Program-made: the position numbers and the translations under genes | Part shown: piece after piece, positions 41,245 to 58,067 of the stretch | How positions within the stretch are numbered: the first letter of the stretch is position 1 | How the letters are laid out: each line of letters opens with the position of its first letter | Notes under the pieces: generated by a model | Told to the model about the DNA's origin: nothing | Databases searched by the model: none | The model's input: the letters and a program-made list of their open reading frames with translations, nothing else | Assembly: GCA_027306925.1 (NCBI GenBank) | Contig: DAHUXW010000089.1 | Location: 1,773-65,772, forward strand | DNA from: Acidimicrobiaceae bacterium | GTDB taxonomy: Bacteria > Actinomycetota > Acidimicrobiia > Acidimicrobiales > Bog-793 | Direction: 5' to 3' | DNA length: 64,000 nucleotides

Positions 41245-41273
41245 CTCAACAGATCCGGGGGACCGGTCGATAG
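41245..41273 (+). promoter_or_regulatory. Sigma-28-like promoter candidate: CTCAAC-N15-GTCGATAG
   Basis: Member of a recurring motif family (see findings). About 110 nt upstream of the cheY-cheX-like fusion gene, in the correct orientation, in an intergenic region. Confidence 0.5.
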
Positions 41274-41384
41274 GAGTAGGGGCGACCGTCCGTCCACGCG
41301 GCGATGCCGCGCCGGCGGCGTGCGCCGGCGACAGGTCCGTTCGCAGGTGAGGCTCACCGCCGCACCGGGAAAGGAAGATCACCA

Positions 41385-42242
41385 GTGCGAGTCCTCGTGG
41401 TGGACGACAGCCGTGCGATGCGGATGATCGTGTCGAGAGAGCTGAAGAACATCGACGCGGTCTCCGGCGTCCTCGAGGCCGAAAGCGCCGAGGCGGCGAT
41501 CGAGATCCTTCCGAACGAGCCGGTCGACCTCATACTTTGCGACTGGAACATGGGGGGCATGACCGGGCTCGAGTTCCTCCAGGCGCTCCGAGCCGCGCAG
41601 TGGTCGGTGCCCTTCGGCTTCGTGACGTCGGAGTCGAGCGAGGAGATCCACGAGAGCGCGTTCGCGGCCGGAGCGGCGTTCTTCGTCGCGAAGCCCTTCA
41701 CCGGCGCCGACCTGTGCGCGAAGATCGACGCCTTCCTCGCCGGCGAGTCCGGACCTGCGGCGGGGGGCGTCGCGTCGGTGCTCGACCGCCCGGCTGCGGT
41801 CGCCGGCCTTCTCGAAGGGCTCCTCCGCCGGCCGGTCACGGTCGCCGCGGTGGGCGAGGGCCCGGTGCGCCAGGTCGCGCGCTGGACTGCTGACTACGTG
41901 GACGCCACGGGCACGGACGCCGCGATGTGCGTCGTCGAGACCCCGATCGCCTCCGCGCTCAGCGCAGCGCTCACGCTCATGTCGCCGGCCGTCGCGGCGG
42001 AGTGGGCGGACTCGGGAACGCTCCCGGACATCTTGTCCGAGAGCTTCCACGAGGTGACGAACGTGCTCGCGAAGGTCGTCCGGAACGACGGCGCGCGCTG
42101 CGTGCTCAGCACGGTCGCCGGCTACGCGCCGGGCGAGAAGCTGCCGGAGAGCGACCGGATCGCCGCGGCCGTCTCACGCGAGCACTTCAAGGTGACGCTC
42201 GAGGGCTACGGAAGCGGGCTGCTCTCGCTCGTGACCCTGTGA
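41385..42242 (+). CDS. Response regulator receiver fused to a CheX/CheC-like phosphatase domain
   Basis: GTG at 41385 preceded by GGAAAGGAAG. The receiver is intact (VLVVDDSRAM, LILCDWNMGGMTG, FVTSES, VAKPF). The C-terminal ~150 aa contains ESFHEVTN-x22-P, matching the CheC/CheX signature D/S-x3-E-x2-N-x22-P with E at the first position. Confidence 0.65.
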   Translation: MRVLVVDDSRAMRMIVSRELKNIDAVSGVLEAESAEAAIEILPNEPVDLILCDWNMGGMTGLEFLQALRAAQWSVPFGFVTSESSEEIHESAFAAGAAFFVAKPFTGADLCAKIDAFLAGESGPAAGGVASVLDRPAAVAGLLEGLLRRPVTVAAVGEGPVRQVARWTADYVDATGTDAAMCVVETPIASALSAALTLMSPAVAAEWADSGTLPDILSESFHEVTNVLAKVVRNDGARCVLSTVAGYAPGEKLPESDRIAAAVSREHFKVTLEGYGSGLLSLVTL

Positions 42243-42326
42243 GGGCCGTGCGCATGCGGTGGGTGCGACGGACGCGATGCTCGGGCCCGGTTCGGCCCAC
42301 GACTCGACAAAGGGGCGTGTGACGTC

Positions 42327-42917
42327 ATGACGACACGGGACGACCAGACCGGGCTCATGAACTTCGGGGCGTTCGCCTTCGTCGTCGACCACGTCGTGAA
42401 GCGCGCGAGCCGTTCGGGCGAGTGTGCGACCGTGCTGTCGATCCGCATCGAGGAGCACGGCGCCGAGCGCCGCGGCTCCGGCGCGCCGGATCCGGCGGCC
42501 GTGTACCAGGTCGCGAGGATGCTCCGCACCGAGCTCCGTGGCGAGGATGTCGTCGCCCGGGTCGGGGACCGGGAGTTCGGGGTCGCGCTGCCCGACACGG
42601 ACGCGGAACACGCCGAGGTCGTCGTCGGCTGGATCGGCGACAAGCTCGCGGGCCAGGCCGCCGCGAAGGGCGGTGGGACCGCCCGTGCGTACGTGGTCGG
42701 CCGGGCGACGTTCGAGCCGACGCACGGCCCGGTGCCCGCAGAGGCACTTCTCGAGGCGGCTCGCTCCTCGGTCGAGGGCCCGTCGCACGTCGCGGGGCGT
42801 GAAGGGCGCCAGGCGCGCGAGGGGGGCGGGGCCGGCGAGCCGTCGTGGGGCGAGGGCGCGAGCCGGCGTTCGACCTCCCGCCGGCATCTCCGCCCGCTTC
42901 GCACCCGCGACGCCTGA
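42327..42917 (+). CDS. Stand-alone degenerate GGDEF domain protein
   Basis: DDQTGLMNFGAFAFVV aligns with D-x-LTGL-x-NRR-x-F. VARVGDREFGVALP aligns with the R-x-GGDEF-x-V-L-L-P position, so the motif reads GDREF. The Arg-rich C-terminal tail is of doubtful reality. Confidence 0.55.
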   Translation: MTTRDDQTGLMNFGAFAFVVDHVVKRASRSGECATVLSIRIEEHGAERRGSGAPDPAAVYQVARMLRTELRGEDVVARVGDREFGVALPDTDAEHAEVVVGWIGDKLAGQAAAKGGGTARAYVVGRATFEPTHGPVPAEALLEAARSSVEGPSHVAGREGRQAREGGGAGEPSWGEGASRRSTSRRHLRPLRTRDA

Positions 42918-42959
42918 GCCGCGCCCGACAAGACCCGCCTTCCTCCTGCCGATCGCGGG

Positions 42960-42988
42960 CTCAAGCCGGGAGGGCGATCGGCCGATAG
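42960..42988 (+). promoter_or_regulatory. Sigma-28-like promoter candidate: CTCAAG-N15-GCCGATAG
   Basis: The -10 matches the classical FliA/SigD/WhiG GCCGATAA at 7 of 8 positions. It lies about 50 nt upstream of flbD-motA-motB-fliL. Confidence 0.6.
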
Positions 42989-43039
42989 CTCTCGTATGGC
43001 ATCACCGCACGCGCGCGTCCTCCGGCAAGGGATCCGGCG

Positions 43040-43345
43040 ATGATCACCCTTCATAATCTGCAAGGAAGCGCGATCGCGATCAACGGTGCGCTCGTCGAGC
43101 GCGTCGACGGCGGTCCCGAGACGCACGTGATGCTCGTGAACGGCACGAGCTACATCGTCAAGGAGTCCATCGACGAGGTCGTGCAGCTCCACCGTGAAGA
43201 CCGGGCGATCGTCCAGGCGATGGCCGTCCACGTCCCCGTCGCGGAGCACCGGACCGTGAGCGCTGAGGCGACTTCGAAGGACACCGGGCTCAGGCTCATC
43301 GTCCGCGACGAGCACGAGCACGAGCACGAGGAGCCGGCGCCGTGA
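43040..43345 (+). CDS. flbD: Flagellar protein FlbD
   Basis: MITLHNLQGSAIAINGALVERVDGGPETHVMLVNGTSYIVKESIDEVV matches the FlbD pattern (L.RLNG....N.DLIE.IE..PDT.I.L.NG..Y.V.ES..EV). It sits directly upstream of motA. Confidence 0.8.
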   Translation: MITLHNLQGSAIAINGALVERVDGGPETHVMLVNGTSYIVKESIDEVVQLHREDRAIVQAMAVHVPVAEHRTVSAEATSKDTGLRLIVRDEHEHEHEEPAP

Positions 43346-44127
43346 AGGACACCTGGACCTCCATGGCGATCGGCGGCGCGCTCGCGTGCGTGCTCGTCGC
43401 GATGGTCCTCGACGGCAGCAGTCCCGCGGTGCTCGTGAAGCCCGCGCCCCTCCTGCTCGTGTTCGGCGGGACGTTCTTCGCCGCGACGGCGGGCTACATG
43501 AAGTCCGACCTGAAGGGCATCAAGCCGAAGCTGCTGCGCGCGACGAAGGGCGACGCGTACGACATGGAGGTCGCGATCCAGGAGATGTCGCGTCTCGCCG
43601 GCATCGCGAAGAGCTCCGGGATCATCGCCCTCGACAAGGAGACGCACTCGATCGAGGACCCGTTTCTGCGCCGCGGGATCGAGCTCGCGGTCGACGGGAC
43701 GAACTCCGAGGAGATCCTCGACGTCCTCGAGAACGACATCGCCGCGACCGAGGCGCGCCACCGCATGGGTGCGAAGGTCTTCGCCGACATGGGCGGCTTC
43801 GCGCCGACGCTCGGCATCATCGGCACGGTCATGGGCCTCGTCCACGTCCTCGGGAACCTGAGCGACCCGCAGTCGCTCGGGCCCGCGATCGGGTCCGCGT
43901 TCACCGCGACGCTCTGGGGCGTCCTCACGGCGAACCTCGTCTGGCTGCCGATCTCGAACAAGCTGAAGCGCTCGAGCGACCTCGAGGTGCAGATCAAGCG
44001 CATGGAGATCGAGGGCCTGCTCGCCATCCAGAACGGCGCGAGCTCCCGCTTCGTCCGGACGCGCATGGAGTCGTTCCTCGCGCCCGAGGCGCGCCACCGG
44101 CCCGACGACAAGGGCGCTGCCGCGTGA
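43342..44127 (+). CDS. motA: Flagellar motor stator protein MotA
   Basis: 261 aa and 4 TM segments. Has FAPTLGIIGTVMGLVHVLGNL and AFTATLWGVLTANLVWLPISNKL. Confidence 0.9.
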   Translation: MKDTWTSMAIGGALACVLVAMVLDGSSPAVLVKPAPLLLVFGGTFFAATAGYMKSDLKGIKPKLLRATKGDAYDMEVAIQEMSRLAGIAKSSGIIALDKETHSIEDPFLRRGIELAVDGTNSEEILDVLENDIAATEARHRMGAKVFADMGGFAPTLGIIGTVMGLVHVLGNLSDPQSLGPAIGSAFTATLWGVLTANLVWLPISNKLKRSSDLEVQIKRMEIEGLLAIQNGASSRFVRTRMESFLAPEARHRPDDKGAAA

Positions 44128-44897
44128 GCACGACCGCCCGACGCCACCATCGCGGCGGCCACGCAGAGGAGCACGAGAACTCCGAGCGCTGGCTCCTCAC
44201 CTACGCGGACATGATCACGCTCCTGCTCGCGCTGTTCGTGGTGCTTTTCGCGATGAGCTCGATCAGCGTGAAGAAGTTCCTCGAGTTCAAGCTCGGGTTG
44301 ACCCAGACCTTCAACCCGACGGCCGTGAACCTCCCGGGTGGCAACGGTCTGCTGACCGCTCCGACGATCGCGGGTCCGAGCGGTTCGAGCACGTCGCCGA
44401 ACCAGGGGACGTCGAGCGCGGCAGCGTCCAACCAGCGACAGCTCCGAGCCATCGCGGACCAGGTCGAGCAGCTGCTCGCCGCGCGTCACCTCCAGAAGGA
44501 CGCGAACGTGAACCTCGGCCCCTCGTCGGTGGTCGTGCAGATCCTCGCGGACCGCGTGTTCTTCGAGACGGACTCAGCCTCCCTCGGCTCGGTCGGCGCC
44601 GCGATCGTCGACACGATCGCGCAGGTCCTGCGCCCGAAGCCGAACGTAATCGAGGTCCAGGGATACACGGACAACCAGCCGATCACGGGCGGTCCCTTCG
44701 CATCCAACTGGGAGCTGTCCGCGGCGCGTGCCGCGAACGTGACGAACCGGCTGAACGTCGTCGATGGCATCCCCGCGACGCGCCTGTCCGCGAGCGGCTA
44801 CAGCGACACCCACCCGGCCGCGCCGAACACGAGCCCGTCGAACCAGGCGAGGAACCGTCGGATCGACGTCGTGATCCTCGGAGTGAAGCAGCCGTGA
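44124..44897 (+). CDS. motB: Flagellar motor protein MotB (OmpA-like C-terminal domain)
   Basis: GTG at 44124 (GTGA overlap). Has ERWLLTYADMITLLLALFVVLFAM with the conserved Asp. The C-terminus reads GYTDNQPI...NWELSAARAANV...NRRIDVVI. Confidence 0.9.
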   Translation: MSTTARRHHRGGHAEEHENSERWLLTYADMITLLLALFVVLFAMSSISVKKFLEFKLGLTQTFNPTAVNLPGGNGLLTAPTIAGPSGSSTSPNQGTSSAAASNQRQLRAIADQVEQLLAARHLQKDANVNLGPSSVVVQILADRVFFETDSASLGSVGAAIVDTIAQVLRPKPNVIEVQGYTDNQPITGGPFASNWELSAARAANVTNRLNVVDGIPATRLSASGYSDTHPAAPNTSPSNQARNRRIDVVILGVKQP

Positions 44898-44925
44898 TCG
44901 CACGTCGTTTGACCGAGGAGGAGTG

Positions 44926-45513
44926 ATGGCAGACACCGGATCCGCGCCGAGCACGCCCGCAGCGCAGGCGGCCGCGAGCCGGCTCGCGGGCATGCGGCCA
45001 CCCGCCGCGGTCGCCGCAGCGGCGCCCGAACCGGAGCCGTCGGGCCGGAAGGCGAAGAAGGCCAAGGGCAAGGAGGCCGACGCGGGAGGCAAGAAGAAGA
45101 AGCCGATCAAGCCGATCCTGCTCGTCGTCGTGCTCCTGCTCGTCGGATACGTGGTGAAGGGCAAGGTGGTCAAGCCGCACTACGGGCCGAAGGACCCGGT
45201 GCCACCGGGCGCGATATTCGATCTGCCGACGTCGGTCACGACGAACCTGCCCGACGGCCACCTCGCGCAGATCGCGATGAGCCTCCAGCTGACGAAGGTC
45301 GGCAGCGCGAAGGTCGTGACGAAGGACACCTCCGAGATCATGAACACCGCCGTGCAGATCGTCGGCTCGCAGACGTACTCGGGCCTGCTCTCGGTGCACG
45401 GACGCGTCGTCGTGAAGCGGGAGATCCTGAAGGCCCTCCAGCAGGAGCTCGGCACGACCGACGGCGCCCAACAGGTTTCGGCCGTCTACTTCACGAGCTT
45501 CGTCGTCCAGTGA
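44926..45513 (+). CDS. fliL: Flagellar basal-body-associated protein FliL
   Basis: ATG at 44926 preceded by GAGGAGGAG. Lys-rich N-terminus, a single TM (ILLVVVLLLVGYVV), then FDLPTSVTTNLPDG...IAMSLQL...VYFTSFVVQ. Confidence 0.75.
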   Translation: MADTGSAPSTPAAQAAASRLAGMRPPAAVAAAAPEPEPSGRKAKKAKGKEADAGGKKKKPIKPILLVVVLLLVGYVVKGKVVKPHYGPKDPVPPGAIFDLPTSVTTNLPDGHLAQIAMSLQLTKVGSAKVVTKDTSEIMNTAVQIVGSQTYSGLLSVHGRVVVKREILKALQQELGTTDGAQQVSAVYFTSFVVQ

Positions 45514-45549
45514 GCGACGCGGCTGCGGCTCGGGCGACCCCGGTACTTG

Positions 45550-45578
45550 CTCAAGTCCAAGCCTCCGGATGCCGATGA
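45550..45578 (+). promoter_or_regulatory. Sigma-28-like promoter candidate: CTCAAG-N15-GCCGATGA
   Basis: Same architecture as the site at 42960. The -10 overlaps the first ATG of the flgN-like ORF (45569), so the real start may be the in-frame GTG at 45587 (leaderless or near-leaderless). Confidence 0.5.
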
Positions 45579-46090
45579 TTGAGGATGTGGATCTCGTGCG
45601 CGACACACCGCTCGAAGCCCTCGCGACCGCGATCGCCGCGCAGACCGACGCGCTCGGGCGCCTGCGCTTCAAGTTCGAGGTGCAGCAGATGATGCTGTCC
45701 GGCGGCTGCACCACGTGGGTCGCGGAGACCACCGAGGAGCTCGAGGCGGCGATCGACGCGGTTCACGAGTGCGACTCGCGGTTCCGGTCGGCGCTCTCGG
45801 TCGCGGCGGGCGCGTGCGGGCTCTCTCCCGAGTCGACGCTCCGTGAGGTCGGTGCGGCCGTCGAGGAGCCGTGGAACTACATCTTCCAGCAGGGACGGGA
45901 CGAGCTGAAGCGCTCCGTCGAGCGCGTGAGCGCGCTGTGCGGCGAGAACCGAAAGCTGCTTGCCCGCGGCTACCTCGCGACCTCGGCCGCGCTGTCGCTG
46001 CTCGGCGTCGCGACGACCACCGCGTACGACGCGAGCGGCGCACCGGTCGCGTCCCAGAGCTCCGCGAACATCTTGAACACGAAGGCCTGA
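45569..46090 (+). CDS. flgN: FlgN-like flagellar export chaperone (start possibly 45587)
   Basis: Helical 167-173-aa protein immediately upstream of flgK-flgL. The assignment rests mainly on position and helical, coiled character. Confidence 0.5.
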   Translation: MPMIEDVDLVRDTPLEALATAIAAQTDALGRLRFKFEVQQMMLSGGCTTWVAETTEELEAAIDAVHECDSRFRSALSVAAGACGLSPESTLREVGAAVEEPWNYIFQQGRDELKRSVERVSALCGENRKLLARGYLATSAALSLLGVATTTAYDASGAPVASQSSANILNTKA

Positions 46091-46094
46091 CGAC

Positions 46095-47516: not shown

Positions 47517-47529
47517 GAGGGAGCGGACC

Positions 47530-48480: not shown

Positions 48481-48508
48481 TCACCAGCGGAACCGAGAAG
48501 GCGCGAAC

Positions 48509-49012
48509 ATGACCGACACCTTGACCGTCTCCGACGTGCGAAGCGCAGCAGCCGGCGTGCGCGCGCTCGTGTTCGACCGAGCGCTCATCGGCTTCCCCGA
48601 GTCGCGCGCGTACCGGCTTCGCAGCCTCGGCGAGGCCTACGCGCCATTCGCCGCGCTCACTTCCGCGGACGAGGACGGTCCGAGCTTCATCGTGGTCCCG
48701 CCGGGGCTGCTGTTCCAGGACTACGTCATCGAGATCCCCGACACTGACGTCGCCGCTCTCGACTTGCGCGCGGCCGAGGAGGTCGAGATCCTCGCGCTCG
48801 TCACGAGGCGGGCGGGCGCGGCGCCGACCGCGAACCTCATGGGGCCGATCGTCGTGAACACCCGCACGGGGCATGCCGCGCAGGTCGTGCTCGCCGACGG
48901 CGGCTACGGCGTCGCAGTACCGCTCGACTCGGGATCGGCACGGGGCGGGGCCCCGGCCGCGCAGGACCCGGACGCGACACCGGCACCGGCCTCGACATCG
49001 GTCGAGCGCTAG
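48509..49012 (+). CDS. fliW: Flagellar assembly factor FliW
   Basis: LIGFPESRAYRL...PFAALTSADEDGPSFIVVPP...PTANLMGPIVVNTRTGHAAQVVL matches the FliW pattern. Confidence 0.85.
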   Translation: MTDTLTVSDVRSAAAGVRALVFDRALIGFPESRAYRLRSLGEAYAPFAALTSADEDGPSFIVVPPGLLFQDYVIEIPDTDVAALDLRAAEEVEILALVTRRAGAAPTANLMGPIVVNTRTGHAAQVVLADGGYGVAVPLDSGSARGGAPAAQDPDATPAPASTSVER

Positions 49013-49590: not shown

Positions 49591-49702
49591 GCCCCGTCCC
49601 TCCCCGCTTCGTCGGTGGCAGTCGGCGCGCATCCTACCGGAGCGCGGGGCGTGGGCCGCGGCTCACGTGCGCCGGAGCGCACGCGACACCACCGATCGGG
49701 GC

Positions 49703-49987: not shown

Positions 49988-50001
49988 CCCGGGCACGGCG
50001 C

Positions 50002-51279: not shown

Positions 51280-53323
51280 TCACCACTCCTATCCGTTCCA
51301 GCTGGACCTGCCGGCCGATCTCGCTCACCGACATGACCGCGAGCCGCGGGATCGCGGCCGCGAAGAGGTGCGCGAGCGCCGGGCGCAGCGCCGAGCCCAC
51401 GACGAGCACGGGCTCGCGTCCGGCGCGGCTGCCTGCGTCGTAGAGGGAGCGCACCTCGCCGACGAGCTGCTCGGTGACCTGGGGCTCGATGCCGAGCACG
51501 GTGCCCTGGTCGGTCACGCGGATGCTGTAGAGGAGGACCTGCTCGAACGCGGCGTCGACCGTCATCGCGGCGAGCTTGCCGTTGCGAGAGTGCGACGCGG
51601 TGATGAGCGGTCCGAGCGCGGTCCGCGCGGCCTCGACCAGCGACTCGTGGCTCTTGTTCGGCTGCCGGGAGCGGGCGGTCACGGCCTCGACGATCCGGAC
51701 GAAGTCGACGATCGGAACGCCCTCGTCCAGGAGCGACGCGAGGACGCGGTGGAGCTCGACGAGGGAGACCTGGGCGAGCTTCAGCTCCTCGACGGCCGCC
51801 GGGTCCGTGGCCTTCGCGGCGTCGAGGAGGATCTGGACCTGCTGGACCGAGAGGAGGTCCGCGGCGTGCCGGGTCACGACCTCCGCGAGGTGGGTGATGA
51901 TCGCGGACGACGGGTCGATCGGCGTGATGCCCGCGACCGCGATCGCCTGCTCGCGGGTCTCTGCGGGGATCCACTTCGCGGGGAGGCCGAACGCGGGCTC
52001 GGTCGTCGAGATCCCGGTAAGGAGGTCGATTCCCGGGCCGATCGCGAGCATCCGAGCCGGGTGGGCCTCGCCCCGAGCGACCTCGACGCCGTTCACACGG
52101 ATCGCGTAGCTGTTCGGCGGCAGGTTGATGTTGTCGTGCGTCCGCACTGTCGGGATCGCGAAGCCACGCTCGAGTGCGACCTTGCGTCTCAGGCCGCGCA
52201 CGCGCTCGAGGAGGTCGCCGCCGTGCGCGGCGTCCGCGAGCGGCGTGACGTTCGCCGCGAGCTCGAGCTCGAGGCGCTCCGCGCGCATCTCGCTCGCGAG
52301 CGCTTGCGGAGTGTCGAGCACGGGCGGGGCGACCGAGTCGAGCTCTGCGCGTGCCGCGTCGCTCGCGCGTGTCTCGGCCGCGCGGCGTGTGCGCGTGGAG
52401 AGCAGGACGAGCAGGCCACCGATGACGAAGAAGGGAAGGTGCGGGAGGCCGGGCACGAGTGCGAGGAGCATCATCGCGGCGCCCGCGATCTGCAGGGCGC
52501 GCGGCTGAGCGCGGAACTGGTCGACGATGTCGTTGCCGAAGTCCGAGTCGTCTCCGGTGCTCCCGCGGGTCACGATGAGCCCGGTTGAGATCGAGAGCAG
52601 GAGCGCCGGGATCTGCGACACGAGCCCGTCTCCGATCGAGAGGATCGAGTAGGTGTGGATCGCCTGGGACATCGACAGGTGGTGGCCGATCACGCCGATG
52701 AGGAAGCCCCCGAACAGATTGATCACCGTGATGATGAGCGCGGCGATCGCGTCGCCGCGGACGAACTTGCTCGCGCCGTCCATGTTCCCGTAGAACTCGG
52801 ACGTCTCGTCGATCTCCTTGCGCCGCCGTCGCGCCTCGGCCTCGTCGATCAGCCCGGAGTTCAGCTCGCCGTCGATCGCGAGCATCTTCGGTCCCATCGC
52901 GTCGAGCGAGAAGCGCGCGGAGACCTCCGACACGCGGCCCGCGCCGCTCGTCACGACGACGAACTGGATGATGATGAGGATCAGGAAGACGACGATCCCG
53001 ACGACGATCTGGCCGCCGATCACGAAGCTCCCGAAGCTCTGCACGACCGCCCCCGCGTAGCCGTGGAGCAGGACGAGCCGGGTGACGCTCACGTTGATCG
53101 CGAGCCGGAACATCGTCGCGATGAGGAGCAGCGACGGGAAGCCGGAGAAGTCGCGCGCCTTGTCGACGTGCATCGTCATGAGCAGCACGATGAGCGCGGC
53201 GGAGATGTTCACGGTGATGAGCAGGTCGAGCAGGAACGACGGCAGCGGCACCACGAGCATCACGATGATGACGATGACCGCCGCGGGGACCCCGAAGAGG
53301 CCGATCTTCTGACCGGTCTTCAC
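51251..53323 (-). CDS. flhA: Flagellar type III export apparatus protein FlhA
   Basis: 690 aa. Has FPSLLLIATMFRLAINVSVTRLVL, FVVVTSGAGRVSEVSARFSLDAMGPKMLAIDGELNSG and FYGNMDGASKFVRGDAIA. Confidence 0.95.
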   Translation of the reverse strand: MKTGQKIGLFGVPAAVIVIIVMLVVPLPSFLLDLLITVNISAALIVLLMTMHVDKARDFSGFPSLLLIATMFRLAINVSVTRLVLLHGYAGAVVQSFGSFVIGGQIVVGIVVFLILIIIQFVVVTSGAGRVSEVSARFSLDAMGPKMLAIDGELNSGLIDEAEARRRRKEIDETSEFYGNMDGASKFVRGDAIAALIITVINLFGGFLIGVIGHHLSMSQAIHTYSILSIGDGLVSQIPALLLSISTGLIVTRGSTGDDSDFGNDIVDQFRAQPRALQIAGAAMMLLALVPGLPHLPFFVIGGLLVLLSTRTRRAAETRASDAARAELDSVAPPVLDTPQALASEMRAERLELELAANVTPLADAAHGGDLLERVRGLRRKVALERGFAIPTVRTHDNINLPPNSYAIRVNGVEVARGEAHPARMLAIGPGIDLLTGISTTEPAFGLPAKWIPAETREQAIAVAGITPIDPSSAIITHLAEVVTRHAADLLSVQQVQILLDAAKATDPAAVEELKLAQVSLVELHRVLASLLDEGVPIVDFVRIVEAVTARSRQPNKSHESLVEAARTALGPLITASHSRNGKLAAMTVDAAFEQVLLYSIRVTDQGTVLGIEPQVTEQLVGEVRSLYDAGSRAGREPVLVVGSALRPALAHLFAAAIPRLAVMSVSEIGRQVQLERIGVVSGVNATAGI

Positions 53324-53389
53324 GGGCGACTCCCGAGGGTTCGCGCGAGCGAGCGCGCCACGGACCGACTCGTGCTGTGCACGGCGGGG

Positions 53390-53418
53390 CTAACGGCGGG
53401 TGGGACGGCCGAGTTGAG
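53390..53418 (-). promoter_or_regulatory. Sigma-28-like promoter candidate (minus strand): CTCAAC-N15-GCCGTTAG
   Basis: Intergenic, about 65 nt upstream of the flhA GTG, in the correct orientation. Same architecture as the plus-strand sites. Confidence 0.55.
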
Positions 53419-53449
53419 CGGCGCCGGGACCCGCCCGGCGGGTCCCGAG

Positions 53450-54844
53450 CTAGCGCCGGCAGAACGCCATGACACGGTCGGCCATGTAGTCGAGCTGCCG
53501 TTCCGACATCCCCGGGTAGAGGCCGATCCACAGCGAACGCTCCATGAGCCGGTCGGTCGCAGCGAGGTCGCCCACGACGCGGTAGCCCTCGCCTGACGCG
53601 CGCATCTCGTCGAAGCACGGGTGCCTGAGCAGGTTGCCGGCGAAGAGCGCACGCGTCTGCACCCGCTCGGACTCGAGCCAGCGCGCGAGGTCCGTGCGCT
53701 CGAAGGGTGCGTCGTCGCGAACCTGGAGGAGGAAGCCGAACCAGCTCGGGTCCGCGCGCTCGGTCGCCACCGGGAGGTCGAGCACGTCGGCGACCGGCTC
53801 GAGCGCGTCGCGCAGGTACGCGAAGTTCGCGCGGCGGGCCGCGCCGAACGCCTCGAGCTTGTCGAGCTGCGCGACCCCGATGGACGCCTGGAGGTCGGTC
53901 ATCTTCAGGTTGTAGCCGAAGTGCGAGTACGTGTACTTGTGGTCGTAGCCGCAGGGGAGCGTGCCGAACTGCTGGTCGAAGCGCTTGCCGCACGTGTTGT
54001 CCCGTCCGGAGCGGCAGTAGCAGTCGCGGCCCCAGTCGCGGAGCGAGGCGACGATGGCGTCGAGCTCGTCGTCCGAGGTGAACACGGCTCCGCCCTCGCC
54101 CGTCGTCATGTGGTGCGCGGGGTAGAAGCTGCTCGTCGCGACGTGGCCGAACGTGCCCGTCGGGCGGGTGGAGCGCTCGAGGATGGAGGTGTAGCGCGAG
54201 CCGAGCGCGTCGCAGTTGTCCTCGAGGAGCCAGAGGTCGTGGCGTCTACAGAAGCCGAGCACGGCGTCGACGTCGAACGGGTTGCCGAGCGTGTGCGCGA
54301 GCGAGACGGCTCGGGTCTTCGGGCTGAGTGCTGCCTCGAGCTGGCGGACGTCGACGTTTGCGGTCGTCGGGTCGACGTCGACGAACACCGGGGCCGCACC
54401 GTGCTGGACGATCGGCGCGACAGTGGTCGGGAAGCCCGCCGCCACCGTGATCACCTCGTCGCCGCGACGGATGCGGCGCTCGCCGAGCCGCGGCGAGGTG
54501 AGCGCGGCGAACGCCACGAGGTTCGCGGACGATCCCGAGTTCACGAGCCGGCAGGAGGACACGCCGAGGGTGGCGGCGAGGCGGGCCTCGAGAGCCGCCG
54601 CGTGGCGGCCCTCGGTGAGCCAGAACTCGAGCGACGCATCGACGAGGTTGCGCACCTCGGCGTCGTCGTAGACGCGCCCGGCGAAGCGCACCGGTGTGCG
54701 GCCCGGGACGAACGGCAGGCGCTCGGCGTCGGCAGCTGCGACGTAGCGGGTGACGAGCGCGAGGATCTGCTCGCGAAGCTCGCGCGCGGTGGGTCGCGCG
54801 CCGACTCCGTCGCCGGCCCCGATGAGGATCTCGGTGGTCGTCAC
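53450..54844 (-). CDS. ddhC: CDP-4-keto-6-deoxy-D-glucose-3-dehydrase (E1; RfbH/DdhC-like, DegT family)
   Basis: GTG at 54844 (GTGA overlap). FYPAHHMTTGEGG has His in place of the PLP lysine, which is the E1 hallmark. The Cys cluster DWGRDCYCRSGRDNTCGKRF is also present. Confidence 0.8.
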   Translation of the reverse strand: MTTTEILIGAGDGVGARPTARELREQILALVTRYVAAADAERLPFVPGRTPVRFAGRVYDDAEVRNLVDASLEFWLTEGRHAAALEARLAATLGVSSCRLVNSGSSANLVAFAALTSPRLGERRIRRGDEVITVAAGFPTTVAPIVQHGAAPVFVDVDPTTANVDVRQLEAALSPKTRAVSLAHTLGNPFDVDAVLGFCRRHDLWLLEDNCDALGSRYTSILERSTRPTGTFGHVATSSFYPAHHMTTGEGGAVFTSDDELDAIVASLRDWGRDCYCRSGRDNTCGKRFDQQFGTLPCGYDHKYTYSHFGYNLKMTDLQASIGVAQLDKLEAFGAARRANFAYLRDALEPVADVLDLPVATERADPSWFGFLLQVRDDAPFERTDLARWLESERVQTRALFAGNLLRHPCFDEMRASGEGYRVVGDLAATDRLMERSLWIGLYPGMSERQLDYMADRVMAFCRR

Positions 54845-55977
54845 GTGAGCGACCCGGCGCGCGCACGACCGGCGTGCGCGAGGACGCCGGGGTCGAGGTA
54901 GCAGTCGATCTGCCGCTCGAGCGCCCGCGCCGCGCAAAAGCCTGTCGCGCGCCGTGCCGCGTGGTACCATTCGACCGTCCAGCGCACTGCGTCGGTCAGG
55001 TCGAGACGCGGCGTCCAGCCGAGACGGGCTTGCGCCTTCGTGCTGTCGAGGGTGAGAACAGCCCGCTCCGGCGCGCGGTTCCCGACCGGCAGGCGGAGCT
55101 CGACGAGACCGCCCCCGCCGAGCTCGCTCCACGACGCCTCGACGAGTGCGACGAGCTGGCCGACCGTCGCGACGCTGCGCGGGTCCGGGCCGAAGTTCCA
55201 GGCCTCGGCGGCCGCGTGCGACTCATCGGCGAGATGGGCGCCGAGCAGGAGGTAGCCGGCGACGACGTCGAGCACGTGCTGCCAGGGGCGCACTGCGTCG
55301 GGTCGGCGGAGATCGAGCGGCATGCCGGTGTCGAGCGCGCGCACGCAGTCCGGGACGATCCGTCCGGGCGCGAAGTCGCCGCCGCCGACGATGTTGCCGG
55401 CCCGTGCGGTCGCGAGCGCGGGACCGCCGCCGAAGAACGACGCGCGGTACGCGTGGGCGACGAGCTCTGCCGCGCCCTTGCTCGCGCTGTAGGGGTCGTC
55501 GCCGCCGAGGTGGTCGGCCTCGAGGTGCGCGCCGTCGCGCGTCGCGTAGCACTTGTCGCTCGTCACGACGACGCAGCTCGCGACGGACCCGACGCGCCGG
55601 ACGGCGTCGAGGACGTGGACCGTGCCCATGACGTTCGTGTCGAAGGTGGCGACCGGGTCGGAGTAAGAGGGGAGCACCAGGGCCTGTGCGGCGAGGTGGA
55701 AGACGACCTCCGGCTGGACGCGGCGGATGACGTCTGCGACCCGGGCCGCGTCGCGCACGTCGGCGATCTCCTCGCGCGCGTACTCGCACAGCTCGCCCGG
55801 CGCGAGCGGACCGGGCCCCGCCGCGAGCGACAGCCCCGTGACGTCGGCTCCGCAGCGGGCGAGCCAGACGCAGAGCCACGTCCCCACGAAGCCGTTGTGG
55901 CCGGTCACGAGGACGCGCTTGTCGCGATAGGCGCCGGCGAACAGGTCCTCGTAGGCGCGTGCCGTCGATGCGGTCAC
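54841..55977 (-). CDS. ddhB: CDP-glucose 4,6-dehydratase (RfbG/DdhB-like)
   Basis: GTG at 55977 (GTGA overlap). Has VLVTGHNGFVGTWL, PYSASKGAAEL and RAGNIVGGGD. Confidence 0.8.
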   Translation of the reverse strand: MTASTARAYEDLFAGAYRDKRVLVTGHNGFVGTWLCVWLARCGADVTGLSLAAGPGPLAPGELCEYAREEIADVRDAARVADVIRRVQPEVVFHLAAQALVLPSYSDPVATFDTNVMGTVHVLDAVRRVGSVASCVVVTSDKCYATRDGAHLEADHLGGDDPYSASKGAAELVAHAYRASFFGGGPALATARAGNIVGGGDFAPGRIVPDCVRALDTGMPLDLRRPDAVRPWQHVLDVVAGYLLLGAHLADESHAAAEAWNFGPDPRSVATVGQLVALVEASWSELGGGGLVELRLPVGNRAPERAVLTLDSTKAQARLGWTPRLDLTDAVRWTVEWYHAARRATGFCAARALERQIDCYLDPGVLAHAGRARAGSLT

Positions 55978-56744
55978 TCCCAGACCTTCCACGGCGCGCG
56001 GCCCGAGGCCCACAGCTCCTCGAGCGCGGTGCGGTCTCGGAGCGTGTCCATGGCGTGCCAGAAGCCGTGGTGCTGGTACGCGGAGAGCTGGCCTTCGGCC
56101 GTGAGGCGCTCGAGCGGCTCGCGCTCCCAGGCGGTGAGCTCGTCGTCCACGTACCCGAGGACGTCGGGCGACAGGACGAAGAACCCGCCGTTGATCCACG
56201 CATCGCCGCCGGACGGCTTCTCCTTGAACCGAGCCACCATGTCCCCGGCGAGCTCGAGCGCGCCGAAGCGGCCGGGTGGCAGGATCGCCGTGACCGTCGC
56301 CAGGCGACCCTGCGCGAAGTGGAAATCGACGACCTTGCGCACGTCGACGTCCCCGACCGAGTCGCCGTAGGTCATCGCGAAGTGGTCGTCCTCGATGTAG
56401 CGCGCGACCTTTGCGAGGCGCCCGCCCGTCTGGGTCGCGTCGCCGGTGTCAACGAGCGTGACGGTCCACGGCTCGACGTCGTGGCGGTGGATCTCCACCG
56501 AGCCGGTCTTCAGGTCGAAGCTGACGTCGGAGTTGTGGAGCACGTAGTTCGAGAAGTACTCCTTGATCGCATAGCCCCGATAGCCGCAGCAGACGACGAA
56601 GTCGTTGAAGCCCGCCGCGGAGTAGATCTTCATGATGTGCCAGAGGATCGGGCGGCCCCCGATCTCGACCATCGGCTTCGGCTTCGTGTGGGTCTCCTCC
56701 GACAGCCGGGTCCCGAGACCGCCGGCGAGGATGACGACTTTCAT
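55974..56744 (-). CDS. ddhA: Glucose-1-phosphate cytidylyltransferase (RfbF/DdhA-like)
   Basis: ATG at 56744. Has MKVVILAGGLGTRLSEETHTKPKPMVEIGGRPILWHIMKIYS and WINGGFFVL. Confidence 0.85.
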   Translation of the reverse strand: MKVVILAGGLGTRLSEETHTKPKPMVEIGGRPILWHIMKIYSAAGFNDFVVCCGYRGYAIKEYFSNYVLHNSDVSFDLKTGSVEIHRHDVEPWTVTLVDTGDATQTGGRLAKVARYIEDDHFAMTYGDSVGDVDVRKVVDFHFAQGRLATVTAILPPGRFGALELAGDMVARFKEKPSGGDAWINGGFFVLSPDVLGYVDDELTAWEREPLERLTAEGQLSAYQHHGFWHAMDTLRDRTALEELWASGRAPWKVWE

Positions 56745-56820
56745 CGGCGTGGCGCTCCTCCCGTGCGGGCACGCGGCGCGTTCGCGTGCACCAGTCGCGA
56801 CCCGCGGGTCGTCGCTGGTC

Positions 56821-56849
56821 GTAACGGCGCGGGACGCGCGGACGTTGAG
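56821..56849 (-). promoter_or_regulatory. Sigma-28-like promoter candidate (minus strand): CTCAAC-N15-GCCGTTAC
   Basis: About 75 nt upstream of the ddhA ATG. Nearly identical to the flhA site (CTCAAC-N15-GCCGTTAG). Confidence 0.55.
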
Positions 56850-56923
56850 CGGTGGCCGCCGCGGCGGGCGACGTGCTCGGTAGGATGCCCGCCGACGCAA
56901 GCCGGACCCCGGAAGGCCCGCGA

Positions 56924-57988
56924 ATGGACCGCACGAGATCGATCATCGACTCCGACCTCGAGCGCATCGCGCGTGACCCGGTGCCGTGGGACCGCCTCGA
57001 AGGCGCGATCGTGCTCGTCACCGGTGCGACCGGTCTCGTCGGCTCGTACCTCGTCGAGGCGCTCGTCGCGCGCCGGGCGCCCGCGCACCGGCGCACGAAG
57101 GTGGTCGTGCTCGCGCGCTCGCCGTCGCGGGCGGCGGCGCGCTTCGCACACCTGGACGCGAGGCACGTCCGGGTCGTCGAGCACCGGCTCGACGCACCGC
57201 TCGCGCTCGAGGGGCGCGCGGACTACGTCGTGCACGCAGGCGCGCCCGCACAGCCGACGGCGTTCGCCGCGGACCCGGTCGGCACCTACGTCCCGAACGT
57301 CGTCGGGACCCACCACCTTCTCGAGTGGGCCGCCGACCGGGGCGTGGCGCGGTTCGCATTCGTGAGCAGCGGCGCGGCAAACGGCGCCGTCCCGCTCGAG
57401 CGCGGGCCGTACGACGAGGACGTCTACGGGCCGCTCGACCCCCTCGACCCGTACGCCTGCTACGCGGAGTCGAAGCGGATGGGGGAGGCGGCGTGCATGG
57501 CCTGGCACCGCCAGACCGGCCTCGAGACCGTCGTCGCGCGGCTGGGCCACACGTACGGCCCGGGCCTCGCCCGCTCCGACGCGCGCTCGTTCGCGGAGTT
57601 CGTGTACTGCGCAGTCGACGGCAGGGACATCGTGCTGCGGACCGCGGGGGAGGCGAGACGGCCGTTCTGCTACCTCACCGACGCCGTGACCGGGTTGCTC
57701 ACGACGCTCGTCGCCGGTGCCGCGGGCCGCGCGTACTTCGTCGTGAACGACGCCGCAGCGTGCTCGATCCTCGAGCTCGCGCAGCTCGTCGCCCGGCTGT
57801 CCCCAGCGCCCGGAATCTCCGTGCGCACGCTCGACGCGCCGCCGGGAGGTGCGCGGGGAGTCCACCCCGCCGGGGACCGCGAGCTCGCGATGCCCGTGGC
57901 GGCGCGTCTGCGCGCGCTCGGATGGGCTCCGCACGTCGGGCTCGCCGAAGGCTTCGCTCGCACCGTCGCCGCACACCTCGGCGGCTGA
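56924..57988 (+). CDS. NAD-dependent epimerase/dehydratase family (SDR) protein
   Basis: VLVTGATGLVGSYL Rossmann motif and YAESKRMGE (YxxxK). Start ATG 56924 is preceded by GGAAGG. Alternatives are 56885 and 56852. Confidence 0.75.
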   Translation: MDRTRSIIDSDLERIARDPVPWDRLEGAIVLVTGATGLVGSYLVEALVARRAPAHRRTKVVVLARSPSRAAARFAHLDARHVRVVEHRLDAPLALEGRADYVVHAGAPAQPTAFAADPVGTYVPNVVGTHHLLEWAADRGVARFAFVSSGAANGAVPLERGPYDEDVYGPLDPLDPYACYAESKRMGEAACMAWHRQTGLETVVARLGHTYGPGLARSDARSFAEFVYCAVDGRDIVLRTAGEARRPFCYLTDAVTGLLTTLVAGAAGRAYFVVNDAAACSILELAQLVARLSPAPGISVRTLDAPPGGARGVHPAGDRELAMPVAARLRALGWAPHVGLAEGFARTVAAHLGG

Positions 57989-58039
57989 CCCCAGACTCCG
58001 GCGGTTCCCGGGCGAGGCCGCGCGCATCGACGCCGCGTC

Positions 58040-58067
58040 CTCAACTCCCGTCGGGCGCGGACGTTAG
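58040..58067 (+). promoter_or_regulatory. Sigma-28-like promoter candidate: CTCAAC-N14-GACGTTAG
   Basis: Lies in the 227-nt gap between the SDR gene and the ThDP-enzyme gene. The spacer is one nt shorter than in the other sites. Confidence 0.4.

What the first reader, a model, noticed from the sequence alone, without database searches (positions are those of the whole stretch)
41245..58067. Recurring CTCAA(C/G)-N15-G(C)CG(A/T)TAG motif upstream of six motility and glycan operons (sigma-28-type promoter family)
Reading the intergenic regions on both strands, I found the same bipartite element six times. Each copy is in the correct orientation and lies 50-140 nt upstream of an operon start.

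| Position | Strand | Sequence | Downstream operon |
|---|---|---|---|
| 41245 | + | CTCAAC-N15-GTCGATAG | cheY-cheX fusion / GGDEF |
| 42960 | + | CTCAAG-N15-GCCGATAG | flbD-motAB-fliL |
| 45550 | + | CTCAAG-N15-GCCGATGA | flgN-flgK-flgL-fliW |
| 53418..53390 | - | CTCAAC-N15-GCCGTTAG | flhA operon |
| 56849..56821 | - | CTCAAC-N15-GCCGTTAC | ddhA-ddhB-ddhC |
| 58040 | + | CTCAAC-N14-GACGTTAG | ThDP enzyme / FkbM / NeuA / NeuB operon |

The -10 part resembles the classical FliA/SigD/WhiG element GCCGATAA, and the spacing of 15 is the classical one. The -35 part (CTCAAG/C) differs from the textbook TAAA.

My rough base-composition estimate gives well under one chance co-occurrence of both halves at this spacing in the window. 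Six copies in sensible positions is therefore very unlikely to be noise.
Basis: seen in the sequence. Interest (0 to 1): 0.8.

Follow-up and report, generated by a model that had tools for sequence, protein, structure and literature searches.

The report
Flagellar sigma-28 promoters, two subclasses
The repeated motif is a real set of flagellar (sigma-28-type) promoters in the motility and sugar-modification gene island of an uncultured Acidimicrobiales bacterium; this is an expected kind of element, but more than half of the copies carry an unusual, conserved T at the base that sigma factors normally need to be A.

Summary
All six sites exist exactly as listed (6 found against 0.12 expected by chance). 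All are intergenic and point at an operon start.

They match the published actinobacterial FliA/WhiG promoter consensus: -35 xT(C/A)Ax, a 16-nt spacer, -10 GCCGA. Two FliA/WhiG-family sigma genes lie in the same island. The motif is kept at the same places upstream of flhA, flbD and flgN in about 30 related Acidimicrobiia genomes, while the flanking DNA diverges. The sigma-28 reading therefore holds, and as such it is a new member of a known kind.

Three points are new:
- There are two further sites, upstream of the sigma#1-che operon and of a glycosyltransferase-like gene.
- The family splits into two conserved subclasses.
  - GCCGAT (-11A) precedes flbD-motAB, flgN-flgKL and REC-GGDEF here, and flagellin and MCP genes in relatives.
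  - GCCGT(T/A)A (-11T) precedes flhA, glycan genes, the glycosyltransferase-like gene and sigma#1-che.
- The -11T class occurs only in the clade examined that also carries sigma#2. This paralogue has a remodelled -11 pocket loop.

Which sigma reads which class is inferred, not shown.

The parts
41245..41273 (+). -11A promoter CTCAAC-N15-GTCGATAG, 112 nt upstream of the REC-domain gene (41385-42242) and GGDEF gene (42327-42917)
   Evidence: The same site with GTCGATAG is present in L001, L003, L004 and L038.
42960..42988 (+). -11A promoter CTCAAG-N15-GCCGATAG, 52 nt upstream of flbD-motA-motB-fliL (43040-45513)
   Evidence: A motif is present upstream of flbD in 15 of 16 related loci, and it is always GCCGAT/GTCGAT.
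45550..45578 (+). -11A promoter CTCAAG-N15-GCCGATGA for flgN-flgK-flgL-fliW (to 49012). The -10 overlaps ATG 45569, and in-frame GTG 45587 lies at the predicted +1, so the mRNA is probably leaderless
   Evidence: Conserved in 14 of 15 related loci, 6-9 nt before the called start.
53390..53418 (-). -11T promoter CTCAAC-N15-GCCGTTAG, 67 nt upstream of flhA (53323-51251), followed by two unknown genes and csrA (to 49009)
   Evidence: The -11T form is kept in L001-L006, L008-L010, L025 and L128, whereas more distant relatives have GCCGATA/GTCGATA at the same place.
56821..56849 (-). -11T promoter CTCAAC-N15-GCCGTTAC, 77 nt upstream of the CDP-sugar genes ddhA-like / 4,6-dehydratase / RfbH(DdhC) (56744-53450)
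   Evidence: Conserved as GCCGTTAC or GCCGTTAG in L001, L004 and L029.
58040..58067 (+). -11T promoter CTCAAC-N14-GACGTTAG (spacer 15 from CTCAA), 110 nt upstream of the ThDP enzyme-FkbM-unknown-CMP-sugar synthetase-NeuB operon (58177 to beyond 64000)
   Evidence: the same site is in L001.
41028..41056 (-). NEW -11T promoter ATCAAG-N15-GCCGTAAC upstream of sigma#1-cheA-cheW-cheB-cheR-cheY-cheX
   Evidence: Conserved upstream of the sigma#1 orthologue in L038 and L040 (GCCGTAAC) and in L041 (CTCAA-N16-GCCGTTAC).
34394..34421 (-). NEW -11T promoter TTCAT-N15-GCCGTTAG, 77 nt upstream of an unannotated 242-aa gene (34317-33589) with a GT-A/DxD-like sequence
   Evidence: Conserved in L038 (identical) and in L040 (TTCAT-N15-GTCGTTGG).
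39992..40837 (-). sigma#1: a FliA/WhiG-family sigma factor and first gene of the che operon. The start is 40837 or 40915. The specificity loop has canonical length
   Evidence: TIGR02479 213.5 bits against a cut-off of 189.6. Best PDB match is Streptomyces WhiG, then E. coli and Pseudomonas FliA. Loop comparison.
30206..31078 (-). sigma#2: a second FliA/WhiG-family sigma factor, 36% identical to sigma#1. It has a one-residue insertion and substitutions in the loop that forms the -11 base pocket
   Evidence: (TIGR02479 187.8 bits, just under the cut-off).
31593..31621 (-). Candidate weak -11A-like site CTAAAG-N15-GCCGACAA, about 515 nt upstream of sigma#2. Its status is uncertain
   Evidence: Similar sites occur upstream of sigma#2 in L038 (GCCGAAAC) and L040 (GCCGACAG), but they do not align with one another.
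31306..31334 (-). Conserved block TTGCCC-N17-TACCGT in the sigma#2 leader. It is a candidate housekeeping (sigma-A-type, TTGnCn/TAnnGT) promoter
   Evidence: Conserved in the window, L038, L040 and L041. It falls below the E. coli-type consensus scan threshold, so this is an inference only.

Best explanation
**What the sites are.** They are promoters of the sigma-28 (FliA/SigD/WhiG) type. They drive the motility, chemotaxis and flagellin-glycosylation island of an uncultured Acidimicrobiales (Actinomycetota) bacterium.

**How they work.** RNA polymerase carries one of the two FliA/WhiG-family sigma factors encoded in the island.
- Its region 4 binds the -35 element CTCAA.
- 16 bp downstream (15 bp at two sites), regions 3.0 and 2.4 bind GCCG.
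- The duplex opens at the next base (-11).
- Transcription starts about 8 nt after the 8-mer, and in some operons this falls directly on the start codon.

**Members in the window.** The family has at least eight members, in two subclasses.
- Canonical -11A (G[C/T]CGAT): REC-GGDEF, flbD-motAB-fliL and flgN-flgKL-fliW. In relatives this class also precedes flagellin and MCP genes.
- Non-canonical -11T (GCCGT[T/A]A): flhA-csrA, the CDP-sugar genes, the ThDP/NeuB sugar operon, a glycosyltransferase-like gene, and the sigma#1-che operon.

**Shown versus inferred.**
- Shown: motif, position, orientation, conservation, the class split and its clade restriction, and the presence of the sigma genes.
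- Inferred: that transcription starts there, and that the two classes are read by different paralogues. My preferred assignment is that sigma#2, with its remodelled -11 pocket loop, reads -11T and thereby switches on sigma#1, and that sigma#1 reads -11A.
For: **Statistics.**
- Six of six sites are found against 0.12 expected.
- The strict -11T pattern gives 5 hits in the window, all intergenic, against 0.32 expected and a maximum of 3 in 500 simulations.
- CTCAA-N16-G[CT]CGAT[AG] gives 3 hits against 0.01 expected.

**Match to known consensus.** The sites fit the published actinobacterial consensus xT(C/A)Ax-N16-GCCGA. In that study flbD and flagellin were the most frequent targets.

**Sigma genes.** Two FliA/WhiG-family sigma genes lie in the island. 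Both keep the equivalents of Pseudomonas FliA DNA-contact residues R80, R82, D87, D93, R97, R101, S224 and Q228.

**Footprinting.**
- The motif is present upstream of flhA in 23 of 32 loci, flbD in 15 of 16 and flgN in 14 of 15.
- It is present upstream of only 4 of 90 operon-internal genes (fliL, fliW, csrA and two unknown genes).
- Spacer and flanks diverge freely.
- The two -35 positions that my pattern did not enforce are C in 86-89% of sites and A in 91-100%.

**Competing promoters.** No sigma-70-consensus site is found in 40800-58300.

**Class split.**
- In 11 related flhA loci from the window's clade (FlhA at least 75% identical), -11T sites number 22 intergenic and 0 genic.
- In 17 more distant loci they number 0 and 0.
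- In 76 loci around canonical WhiG genes they number 2 and 1.
- Of the 16 possible dinucleotides at -11/-10, only AT (both clades) and TT/TA (the window's clade only) are enriched in intergenic DNA.
- In relatives, flagellin genes carry -11A. Glycosyl- and methyltransferase, PseB-like and aminotransferase genes carry -11T.

**Sigma#2.**
- Family members down to 54% identity sit in genomes that have -11T promoters.
- Its loop has an insertion next to D66, plus P69 and R72.
- Sigma#1's loop has canonical length, and Pseudomonas FliA itself has A71.
- Sigma#2 has a conserved sigma-A-like block in its leader.
Against: - There are no transcription start or expression data. The organism is uncultured.
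- The -11T sites break the most conserved feature of sigma-28 promoters (CGA, with -11A flipped into sigma region 2). Recognition by a sigma-28 paralogue is therefore an extrapolation.
- Three features are inherited together in every genome examined: -11T promoters, the sigma#2 family, and the 'GAQF' loop subgroup of sigma#1. The comparative data therefore amount to roughly one evolutionary event and cannot say which sigma reads which class.
- I could not show that the genomes lacking -11T promoters also lack sigma#2.
- The sigma-A-like promoter of sigma#2 is weak by consensus.
- Gene calls in the related loci come from my own simple caller.
Confidence: 0.8

Rival explanations
1. There is one sigma-28 regulon only. 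A single FliA/WhiG sigma, or both interchangeably, reads all the sites. The -11T copies are simply weaker or activator-dependent versions, used to set expression level or timing for flhA, the glycan genes and the che operon.
For: - Both classes share the same -35, spacing and GCCG.
- Overexpressed WhiG1 and WhiG2 paralogues of Geodermatophilus both complement Streptomyces whiG, which suggests similar specificity among paralogues.
- In more distant relatives the same operons (flhA, sigma#1) use -11A.
Against: - A weakened promoter could carry any mismatch. Instead only T at -11, followed by T or A, is enriched in intergenic DNA. C and G at -11 stay at background.
- The T is kept at several independent operons across relatives with FlhA identity down to about 75%.
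- -11A is the one non-template base that sigma-28 reads by flipping. A uniform switch to T therefore looks like a change of specificity rather than of strength.
Confidence: 0.22
2. The -11T sites are read by a sigma factor outside the FliA/WhiG family, for example an ECF-type sigma with an AAC -35 and CGT -10, encoded elsewhere in the genome.
For: - ECF -10 elements often contain CGT (my own knowledge).
- Three -11T sites in the window read CTCAAC, which contains AAC.
Against: - In relatives the -35 of -11T sites is as often CTCAAG, CTAAAG or TTCAT, so AAC is not conserved.
- The -35, the 16-nt spacing and the GCCG extended -10 are identical to the -11A class.
- The orthologous flhA and sigma#1 promoters in distant relatives are plain sigma-28 sites. 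This argues for descent from sigma-28 promoters.
Confidence: 0.06
3. The motif is the operator of a DNA-binding regulator (activator or repressor), not a promoter.
For: Conserved intergenic motifs upstream of co-regulated operons can be transcription-factor sites.
Against: - The element is bipartite and asymmetric, with no dyad or direct-repeat symmetry.
- It is strictly orientation-dependent.
- The two conserved blocks are separated by a non-conserved spacer of fixed length.
- In several lineages it ends 6-9 nt before the start codon. That suits a leaderless promoter and not an operator.
- It equals a known sigma consensus.
Confidence: 0.03
4. The motif is a chance or compositional artefact of a 72% G+C genome.
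For: None beyond the low information content of the -35 part.
Against: Shuffles and simulations, the 22:0 intergenic-to-genic split, and conservation at orthologous positions in about 30 genomes.
Confidence: 0.01

Closest known systems
Predicted WhiG1/WhiG2 (sigma-28 family) promoters of Actinomycetota: -35 xT(C/A)Ax, 16-nt spacer, -10 GCCGA (Denis et al., mSystems 2026, PMC13595943)
   Same: - The -35 (CTCAA fits xTCAx), the spacing and the GCCGA -10 are the same for the three -11A sites.
- There are several sites inside one flagellar cluster.
- flbD and flagellin are among the targets.
- A GGDEF gene is a target.
- The sigma gene is encoded next to the cluster.
   Different: - That search required CGA at positions 3-5 of the -10, so it could not see the -11T class.
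- Acidimicrobiia are not mentioned there.
- That paper concluded that the paralogues recognise similar promoters, and it left open whether co-occurring paralogues have distinct regulons.
Actinoplanes missouriensis flagellar gene cluster: 11 transcription units, all under FliA1/FliA2-recognised promoters, with three to four FliA-family paralogues (Jang 2016 and Hashiguchi 2020, as summarised in PMC13083903 and PMC13595943)
   Same: - In an actinobacterium, early flagellar genes as well as late ones are driven by sigma-28-type promoters.
- Several FliA paralogues are present, with partly different regulons.
   Different: - No promoter-sequence basis for the split between paralogues is reported in the texts I could read. 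The primary papers were not available.
- Here the split is marked by the base at -11.
- That system depends on the TcrA activator, which was not looked for here.
Classical sigma-28 promoters of E. coli/Salmonella, Pseudomonas and Bacillus (TAAA-N15-GCCGATAA) and the Pseudomonas FliA-RNAP open complex (PMC12784957)
   Same: - The architecture is bipartite, with an extended -10 GC and a CG at -13/-12.
- flgKL, flgN and motAB are classical class-3 targets (my own knowledge). Here they carry the canonical -11A form.
- The contact residues are conserved in both window sigmas.
   Different: - The -35 is TCAA, not TAAA, and the spacer is one base longer.
- flhA, a class-2 sigma-70 gene in enterics (my own knowledge), is also under this motif.
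- Five sites have T where the structure shows A flipped into sigma region 2.
WhiG-dependent promoters of Rubrobacter radiotolerans with mapped transcription starts (PMC8325347)
   Same: Sigma-28-family promoters in a deep-branching actinobacterium were predicted from the consensus and confirmed by 5' end capture. DGC/PDE genes are among the targets.
   Different: - That regulon controls type IV pili, not flagella.
- It uses the TAAA / GCCGATAA consensus.
- It has a single WhiG with an RsiG anti-sigma.

Membership tests
Sigma-28 (FliA/SigD/WhiG)-dependent promoter | Bipartite element with a fixed 15-16 nt spacer between a TAAA-like -35 and an 8-bp -10 | tested here: met
   CTCAA + 16 nt (15 at two sites) + 8-mer at all eight sites. 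The spacer is not conserved in sequence, but its length is.
Sigma-28 (FliA/SigD/WhiG)-dependent promoter | -10 core GCCGA with A at -11 (the flipped, read base): sites 41245, 42960, 45550 | tested here: met
   GTCGATAG, GCCGATAG and GCCGATGA. Numbering follows (-15)GCCGATAA(-8) in PMC12784957.
Sigma-28 (FliA/SigD/WhiG)-dependent promoter | -10 core GCCGA with A at -11: sites 53418, 56849, 58040, 41056, 34421 | tested here: not met
   GCCGTTAG, GCCGTTAC, GACGTTAG, GCCGTAAC and GCCGTTAG all have T at -11. A register shift that would put an A at -11 would lose the conserved GCCG contacts and the spacing, so I rejected it.
Sigma-28 (FliA/SigD/WhiG)-dependent promoter | A cognate FliA/WhiG-family sigma factor is encoded in the genome | tested here: met
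   There are two: 39992-40837(-) scores 213.5 bits and 30206-31078(-) scores 187.8 bits on TIGR02479, cut-off 189.6. Best PDB matches are WhiG and FliA.
Sigma-28 (FliA/SigD/WhiG)-dependent promoter | Sense orientation upstream of flagellar or chemotaxis genes | tested here: met
   All sites are intergenic, point at the next start and lie up to 191 nt from it. The genes were annotated by Pfam.
Sigma-28 (FliA/SigD/WhiG)-dependent promoter | Transcription starts about 7-9 nt downstream and depends on the sigma factor | not testable with these tools
   The organism is an uncultured MAG and no RNA data are at hand. The only indirect hint is that start codons lie 6-9 nt after the 8-mer in several lineages.
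Actinobacterial WhiG1-type flagellar regulon (PMC13595943) | The sigma gene is encoded within or next to the flagellar cluster, and there are several predicted sites inside the cluster, including flbD and flagellin | tested here: met
   - Sigma#1 is about 2 kb from flbD, and sigma#2 is about 12 kb from it.
- flbD has a site in the window.
- Flagellin genes have sites in L009, L012, L015, L017 and L025.
Actinobacterial WhiG1-type flagellar regulon (PMC13595943) | Membership of the WhiG1 clade, and no RsiG anti-sigma partner | not tested
   I built no phylogeny against their WhiG1 and WhiG2 sets and did not search for RsiG. Both window sigmas score best against the WhiG model NF004935 but fall far below its cut-off.
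ECF-sigma promoter (AAC -35, CGT -10), considered for the -11T class | Conserved AAC in the -35 | tested here: not met
   The base after CTCAA is C in 41%, G in 30% and T in 19% of -11T sites. The orthologous sites in distant relatives are plain sigma-28 sites.
Transcription-factor operator | Dyad or direct-repeat symmetry, and function independent of orientation | tested here: not met
   The two half-sites are asymmetric and strictly oriented, and the element can abut the start codon.

The most novel reading that the evidence does not exclude
In one clade of Acidimicrobiia the flagellar hierarchy is built from two sigma-28 paralogues that are kept apart by a single promoter base.

- Sigma#2 has a remodelled -11 pocket loop and is itself expressed from a housekeeping-type promoter.
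- Sigma#2 reads GCCGT(T/A)A (-11T) promoters. These switch on the export gate (flhA), the flagellin-glycan enzymes and the sigma#1-che operon.
- Sigma#1 then reads canonical GCCGAT (-11A) promoters for flagellin, hook-associated proteins, stators, MCP and c-di-GMP genes.

This would be a sigma-70-family member that has changed the identity of the flipped -11 base. It would also be a sigma-28 to sigma-28 cascade standing in for a master regulator.
Probability: 0.4. Interest if true: 0.75.

Novelty: new variant of a known kind. Interest (0 to 1): 0.5.

Why it matters
As sigma-28 promoters in an actinobacterial flagellar cluster, the six sites add a new lineage (Acidimicrobiia, uncultured) to a picture already published for Actinoplanes, Cellulomonas and Geodermatophilus. 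That part is useful for annotation but not surprising.

The conserved -11T subclass is of more interest.
- -11A is the nucleating, flipped base for nearly all sigma-70-family -10 elements, and it is the only non-template base that sigma-28 reads.
- A whole, conserved set of promoters with T at that position co-occurs with a paralogous sigma whose pocket loop is altered.
- This gives a concrete, testable sequence basis for how co-resident sigma-28 paralogues could keep separate regulons. The 2026 survey of actinobacterial WhiG homologues explicitly left that question open.
- Consensus searches that require CGA will miss about half of the regulon in these organisms.

Tried and rejected
1. **Metagenome scan with a sigma#1-family alignment.** It returned mostly canonical WhiG/FliA loci (39-45% identity) and only four sigma#1-family loci. 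I used it only as a negative control.
2. **Loop residue 71 of sigma#1 as the -11 determinant.** Residue 71 is Ala where sigma#1's own promoter is -11T, and Val/Phe/Ile where it is -11A. I rejected it as a determinant because Pseudomonas FliA, which reads -11A, also has Ala71, and because the correlation is one phylogenetic event.
3. **Register shift for the -11T sites.** Putting the A at position 7 of the 8-mer at -11 would abandon the perfectly conserved GCCG and the common 16-nt spacing, so I rejected it.
4. **Riboswitch or known RNA in the roughly 500-nt sigma#2 leader.** No Rfam match was found even at E<=1. The whole window has only one tRNA.
5. **E. coli-type sigma-70 promoter scan.** It found nothing in 40800-58300 or in the sigma#2 leader.
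6. **Anti-sigma FlgM.** The 97-aa gene after flhA is a two-helix membrane protein with no FlgM hit. No FlgM candidate was found in the window.
7. **Reaching the remaining flagellar genes of this genome (fliF...flhB, fliC).** The look-up beyond the window end gave only a 7.5-kb contig carrying more sugar genes.
8. **Primary Actinoplanes papers (Jang 2016, Hashiguchi 2020).** They are not held. A literature search for GCCGTTA/GCCGTAA returned only primer noise.
9. **Other hits of the relaxed patterns in the window.** Examples are 16883, 49241, 52017, 44887, 5255 and 40856. They have poor -35 boxes, or lie inside genes, or have no gene downstream, and their number is what chance gives (9 observed against 4.8 expected).

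Full report
**1. Observation**

Dinucleotide-preserving shuffles expect 0.12 occurrences, and none of 100 shuffles reaches six. The window is about 72% G+C. I called genes with a codon-usage model and annotated them with Pfam and NCBIfam. All six sites are intergenic and point at the next gene start.

- a REC protein and a GGDEF protein
- flbD-motA-motB-fliL
- flgN-flgK-flgL-fliW
- flhA, followed by two unknown genes and csrA
- a cytidylyltransferase / 4,6-dehydratase / RfbH (DdhC) set
- a ThDP enzyme-FkbM-unknown-CMP-sugar synthetase-NeuB operon

Small corrections:
- The 'cheY-cheX fusion' is not confirmed.
- Site 3 overlaps the longest flgN ORF start, so its mRNA is probably leaderless.
- Counted from TCAA, the spacer is 16 nt rather than the classical 15.

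**2. Organism and relatives**

FlhA from the window is 99% identical to that of a MAG labelled Acidimicrobiales bacterium SMAG_U13901. Thirty-odd further Acidimicrobiia and other Actinomycetota MAGs carry syntenic loci, with FlhA identity from 92% down to about 50%.

**3. What it is**

The island holds two FliA/WhiG-family sigma genes.
- Sigma#1 (39992-40837, minus strand) is the first gene of a cheA-W-B-R-Y-X operon.
- Sigma#2 (30206-31078, minus strand) lies about 9 kb away.
- They are 36% identical to each other. Their best matches among solved structures are Streptomyces WhiG and the E. coli, Pseudomonas and Aquifex FliA proteins.

A 2026 survey of WhiG homologues in Actinomycetota used the consensus -35 xT(C/A)Ax, a 16-nt spacer and -10 GCCGA. 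It found several such sites inside the flagellar clusters of Actinoplanes, Cellulomonas and Geodermatophilus, with flbD and flagellin as the commonest targets and DGC/PDE genes as frequent ones (PMC13595943). CTCAA + 16 + GCCGA is exactly that consensus, so the CTCAA -35 is not new for this phylum. In Actinoplanes missouriensis all flagellar transcription units are reported to be under FliA1/FliA2-type promoters (PMC13083903). That is the closest worked example.

**4. Conservation**

I mapped orthologues in the related loci and searched 260 nt upstream of each.

| Gene | Loci with the motif |
|---|---|
| flhA | 23 of 32 |
| flbD | 15 of 16 |
| flgN | 14 of 15 |
| Operon-internal genes (fliL, fliW, csrA, two unknowns) | 4 of 90 |

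- Most of the flhA loci that fail the pattern show the element by eye, with G or A as the first -35 base.
- The motif sits at a near-constant distance from the start codon.
- Spacer and flanks diverge freely, while the two boxes stay fixed.
- The two -35 positions that my pattern left free are C in 86-89% of sites and A in 91-100%.
- In several lineages the 8-mer ends 6-9 nt before the start codon of flgN or flhA. That fits leaderless transcripts.
- An E. coli-type sigma-70 scan finds no site in 40800-58300.

Together this supports functional sigma-28-type promoters. No transcription data exist for this uncultured organism.

**5. More sites, and two subclasses**

Reading the other intergenic regions gave two more members:
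- ATCAAG-N15-GCCGTAAC at 41056..41028(-), upstream of sigma#1-che
- TTCAT-N15-GCCGTTAG at 34421..34394(-), upstream of an unannotated gene with a GT-A/DxD-like sequence

Both are conserved in L038, L040 and L041. With them, the window holds three sites with A at the fifth position of the 8-mer and five with T.

In the Pseudomonas FliA open complex the element is numbered (-15)GCCGATAA(-8). The fifth base is -11A. It is flipped into sigma region 2 and is the only non-template base that sigma-28 reads (PMC12784957). The T-sites therefore fail a defining feature of the family. The published actinobacterial search required CGA and could not have found them.

**6. The split is not noise**

*By operon.*
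- In the window and its closer relatives (FlhA at least 75% identical), flhA, the CDP-sugar genes, other glycosyl- and methyltransferase, PseB-like and aminotransferase genes, the GT-A/DxD-like gene and sigma#1 always carry -11T.
- flbD, flgN, REC-GGDEF, MCP and flagellin genes carry -11A.

*Strict -11T pattern, intergenic versus genic hits.*

| Set of loci | Intergenic | Genic | DNA scanned |
|---|---|---|---|
| 11 related flhA loci from the window's clade | 22 | 0 | 24.9 kb intergenic, 170 kb genic |
| 17 more distant flhA loci | 0 | 0 | 295 kb |
| 76 loci around canonical WhiG genes of other Actinomycetota | 2 | 1 | 422 kb |
| The window | 5 | 0 | 7.8 kb intergenic, 56 kb genic |

For the window, simulation expects 0.32 hits.

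*By dinucleotide.* Of the 16 possible dinucleotides at -11/-10, only AT (both clades) and TT/TA (the window's clade only) are enriched in intergenic DNA. The rest sit at the 17% background. A merely weakened promoter would not insist on T.

*In distant relatives.* The orthologous flhA and sigma#1 promoters in the more distant relatives are ordinary GCCGATA sites. The -11T class therefore arose from sigma-28 promoters within one lineage.

**7. Which sigma reads which class (inference)**

- Both window sigmas keep the equivalents of R80, R82, D87, D93, R97 and R101, and of S224 and Q228. In Pseudomonas FliA these contact G-12/C-13, the extended -10 and the -35. This fits the shared CTCAA and GCCG.
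- The loop that forms the -11 pocket (Pseudomonas residues 64-73) has canonical length in sigma#1.
- In the whole sigma#2 family that loop has a one-residue insertion next to D66, Pro at 69 and Arg at 72.
- Sigma#2-family genes down to 54% identity lie in genomes with -11T promoters.
- The distant relatives without -11T sites instead show a third paralogue next to flbD.
- The sigma#2 leader contains a block conserved in four genomes, TTGCCC-N17-TACCGT, which looks like a housekeeping promoter.

I therefore prefer this cascade: housekeeping sigma, then sigma#2, then -11T promoters (including sigma#1), then sigma#1, then -11A promoters.

The opposite assignment (each sigma autoregulated) and a single-regulon model are not excluded. 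Sigma#2, the 'GAQF' subgroup of sigma#1 and the -11T promoters are inherited together in every genome I could examine. I also first took Ala71 of sigma#1 as a candidate determinant, and dropped it because Pseudomonas FliA has Ala71 too.

**8. Comparison and novelty**

The finding as written is a new member of a known kind: sigma-28-type promoters in an actinobacterial flagellar cluster. The conserved -11T subclass, its clade restriction and its association with a loop-variant paralogue make it a new variant of that kind. It bears on the question, left open in PMC13595943, of whether co-resident WhiG/FliA paralogues have separate regulons. I found no description of GCCGT(T/A)A sigma-28-type promoters in the searchable literature. 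The primary Actinoplanes papers could not be read.

**9. Verdict**

It is right about the family, but it pools a canonical and a non-canonical class.
- Interest is moderate: 0.5 overall. It would be higher if the two-sigma, one-base insulation model proves true.

Noticed in passing
window 53381-53366 (minus strand); L011, L013-L022, L024, L027, L028, L031, L036 upstream of flhA: The flhA leader carries a conserved hairpin, GTGC-aca-GCAC, right after the promoter in the window's clade. In more distant relatives the leader instead has a conserved CGCCAGGACGGCG, with GGA in a hairpin loop, which looks like a CsrA binding site. Because csrA is the last gene of that same operon, CsrA may autoregulate the operon.
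   Followed up: no
window 31078-31640 (minus strand): Sigma#2 has a leader of about 500 nt with lower G+C. Two blocks in it are conserved in four genomes: TTGCCC-N17-TACCGT and a following CACCACGTTGCGTGC, which is partly an inverted repeat ACGCAAC...GTTGCGT. There is no Rfam match.
   Followed up: partly
window 49009-49632 (minus strand): CsrA is 207 aa long. The CsrA domain occupies only about residues 130-190, so there is a long N-terminal extension of unknown function. The extension is also present in relatives.
   Followed up: no
window 40838-41384; L038 7088-9565, L040 6067-8565, L041 7796-9799: Relatives have an MCP gene, with its own -11A promoter, between sigma#1 and the REC gene. The window has only a 540-nt spacer at that place.
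   Followed up: no
window 33589-34317 (minus strand): This unannotated 242-aa protein contains IVPSRGRP...DDDD...GDD, which looks like a GT-A (DxD) glycosyltransferase. It has no Pfam or NCBIfam hit. It is conserved after cheX in L038 and L040, with its own -11T promoter.
   Followed up: partly
L001 and L002 (both from MAG SMAG_U13901): The same MAG holds two flhA loci, 99% and 92% identical to the window's and with different neighbours upstream. Either two strains were binned together or the locus is duplicated.
   Followed up: no
L012-L014, L027, L032, L044 (next to flbD); L045 6281-7069: The more distant relatives carry a third FliA/WhiG paralogue, 36-40% identical to both window sigmas and divergent from flbD. 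In those genomes the -35 boxes differ by operon: TTCAA for flbD and flgN, CTCAA for flhA and flagellin, and GT(C/A)AA for the sigma#1 homologue. This hints at a different way of partitioning the regulons.
   Followed up: partly
window 41385-42242: The REC protein has a C-terminal part of about 170 aa with no detectable family and no similarity to the window's CheX. It is conserved (75-98% identical) in L001, L003 and L004.
   Followed up: no
window 3267-3341: This is the single tRNA gene and the only Rfam match in the window.
   Followed up: no
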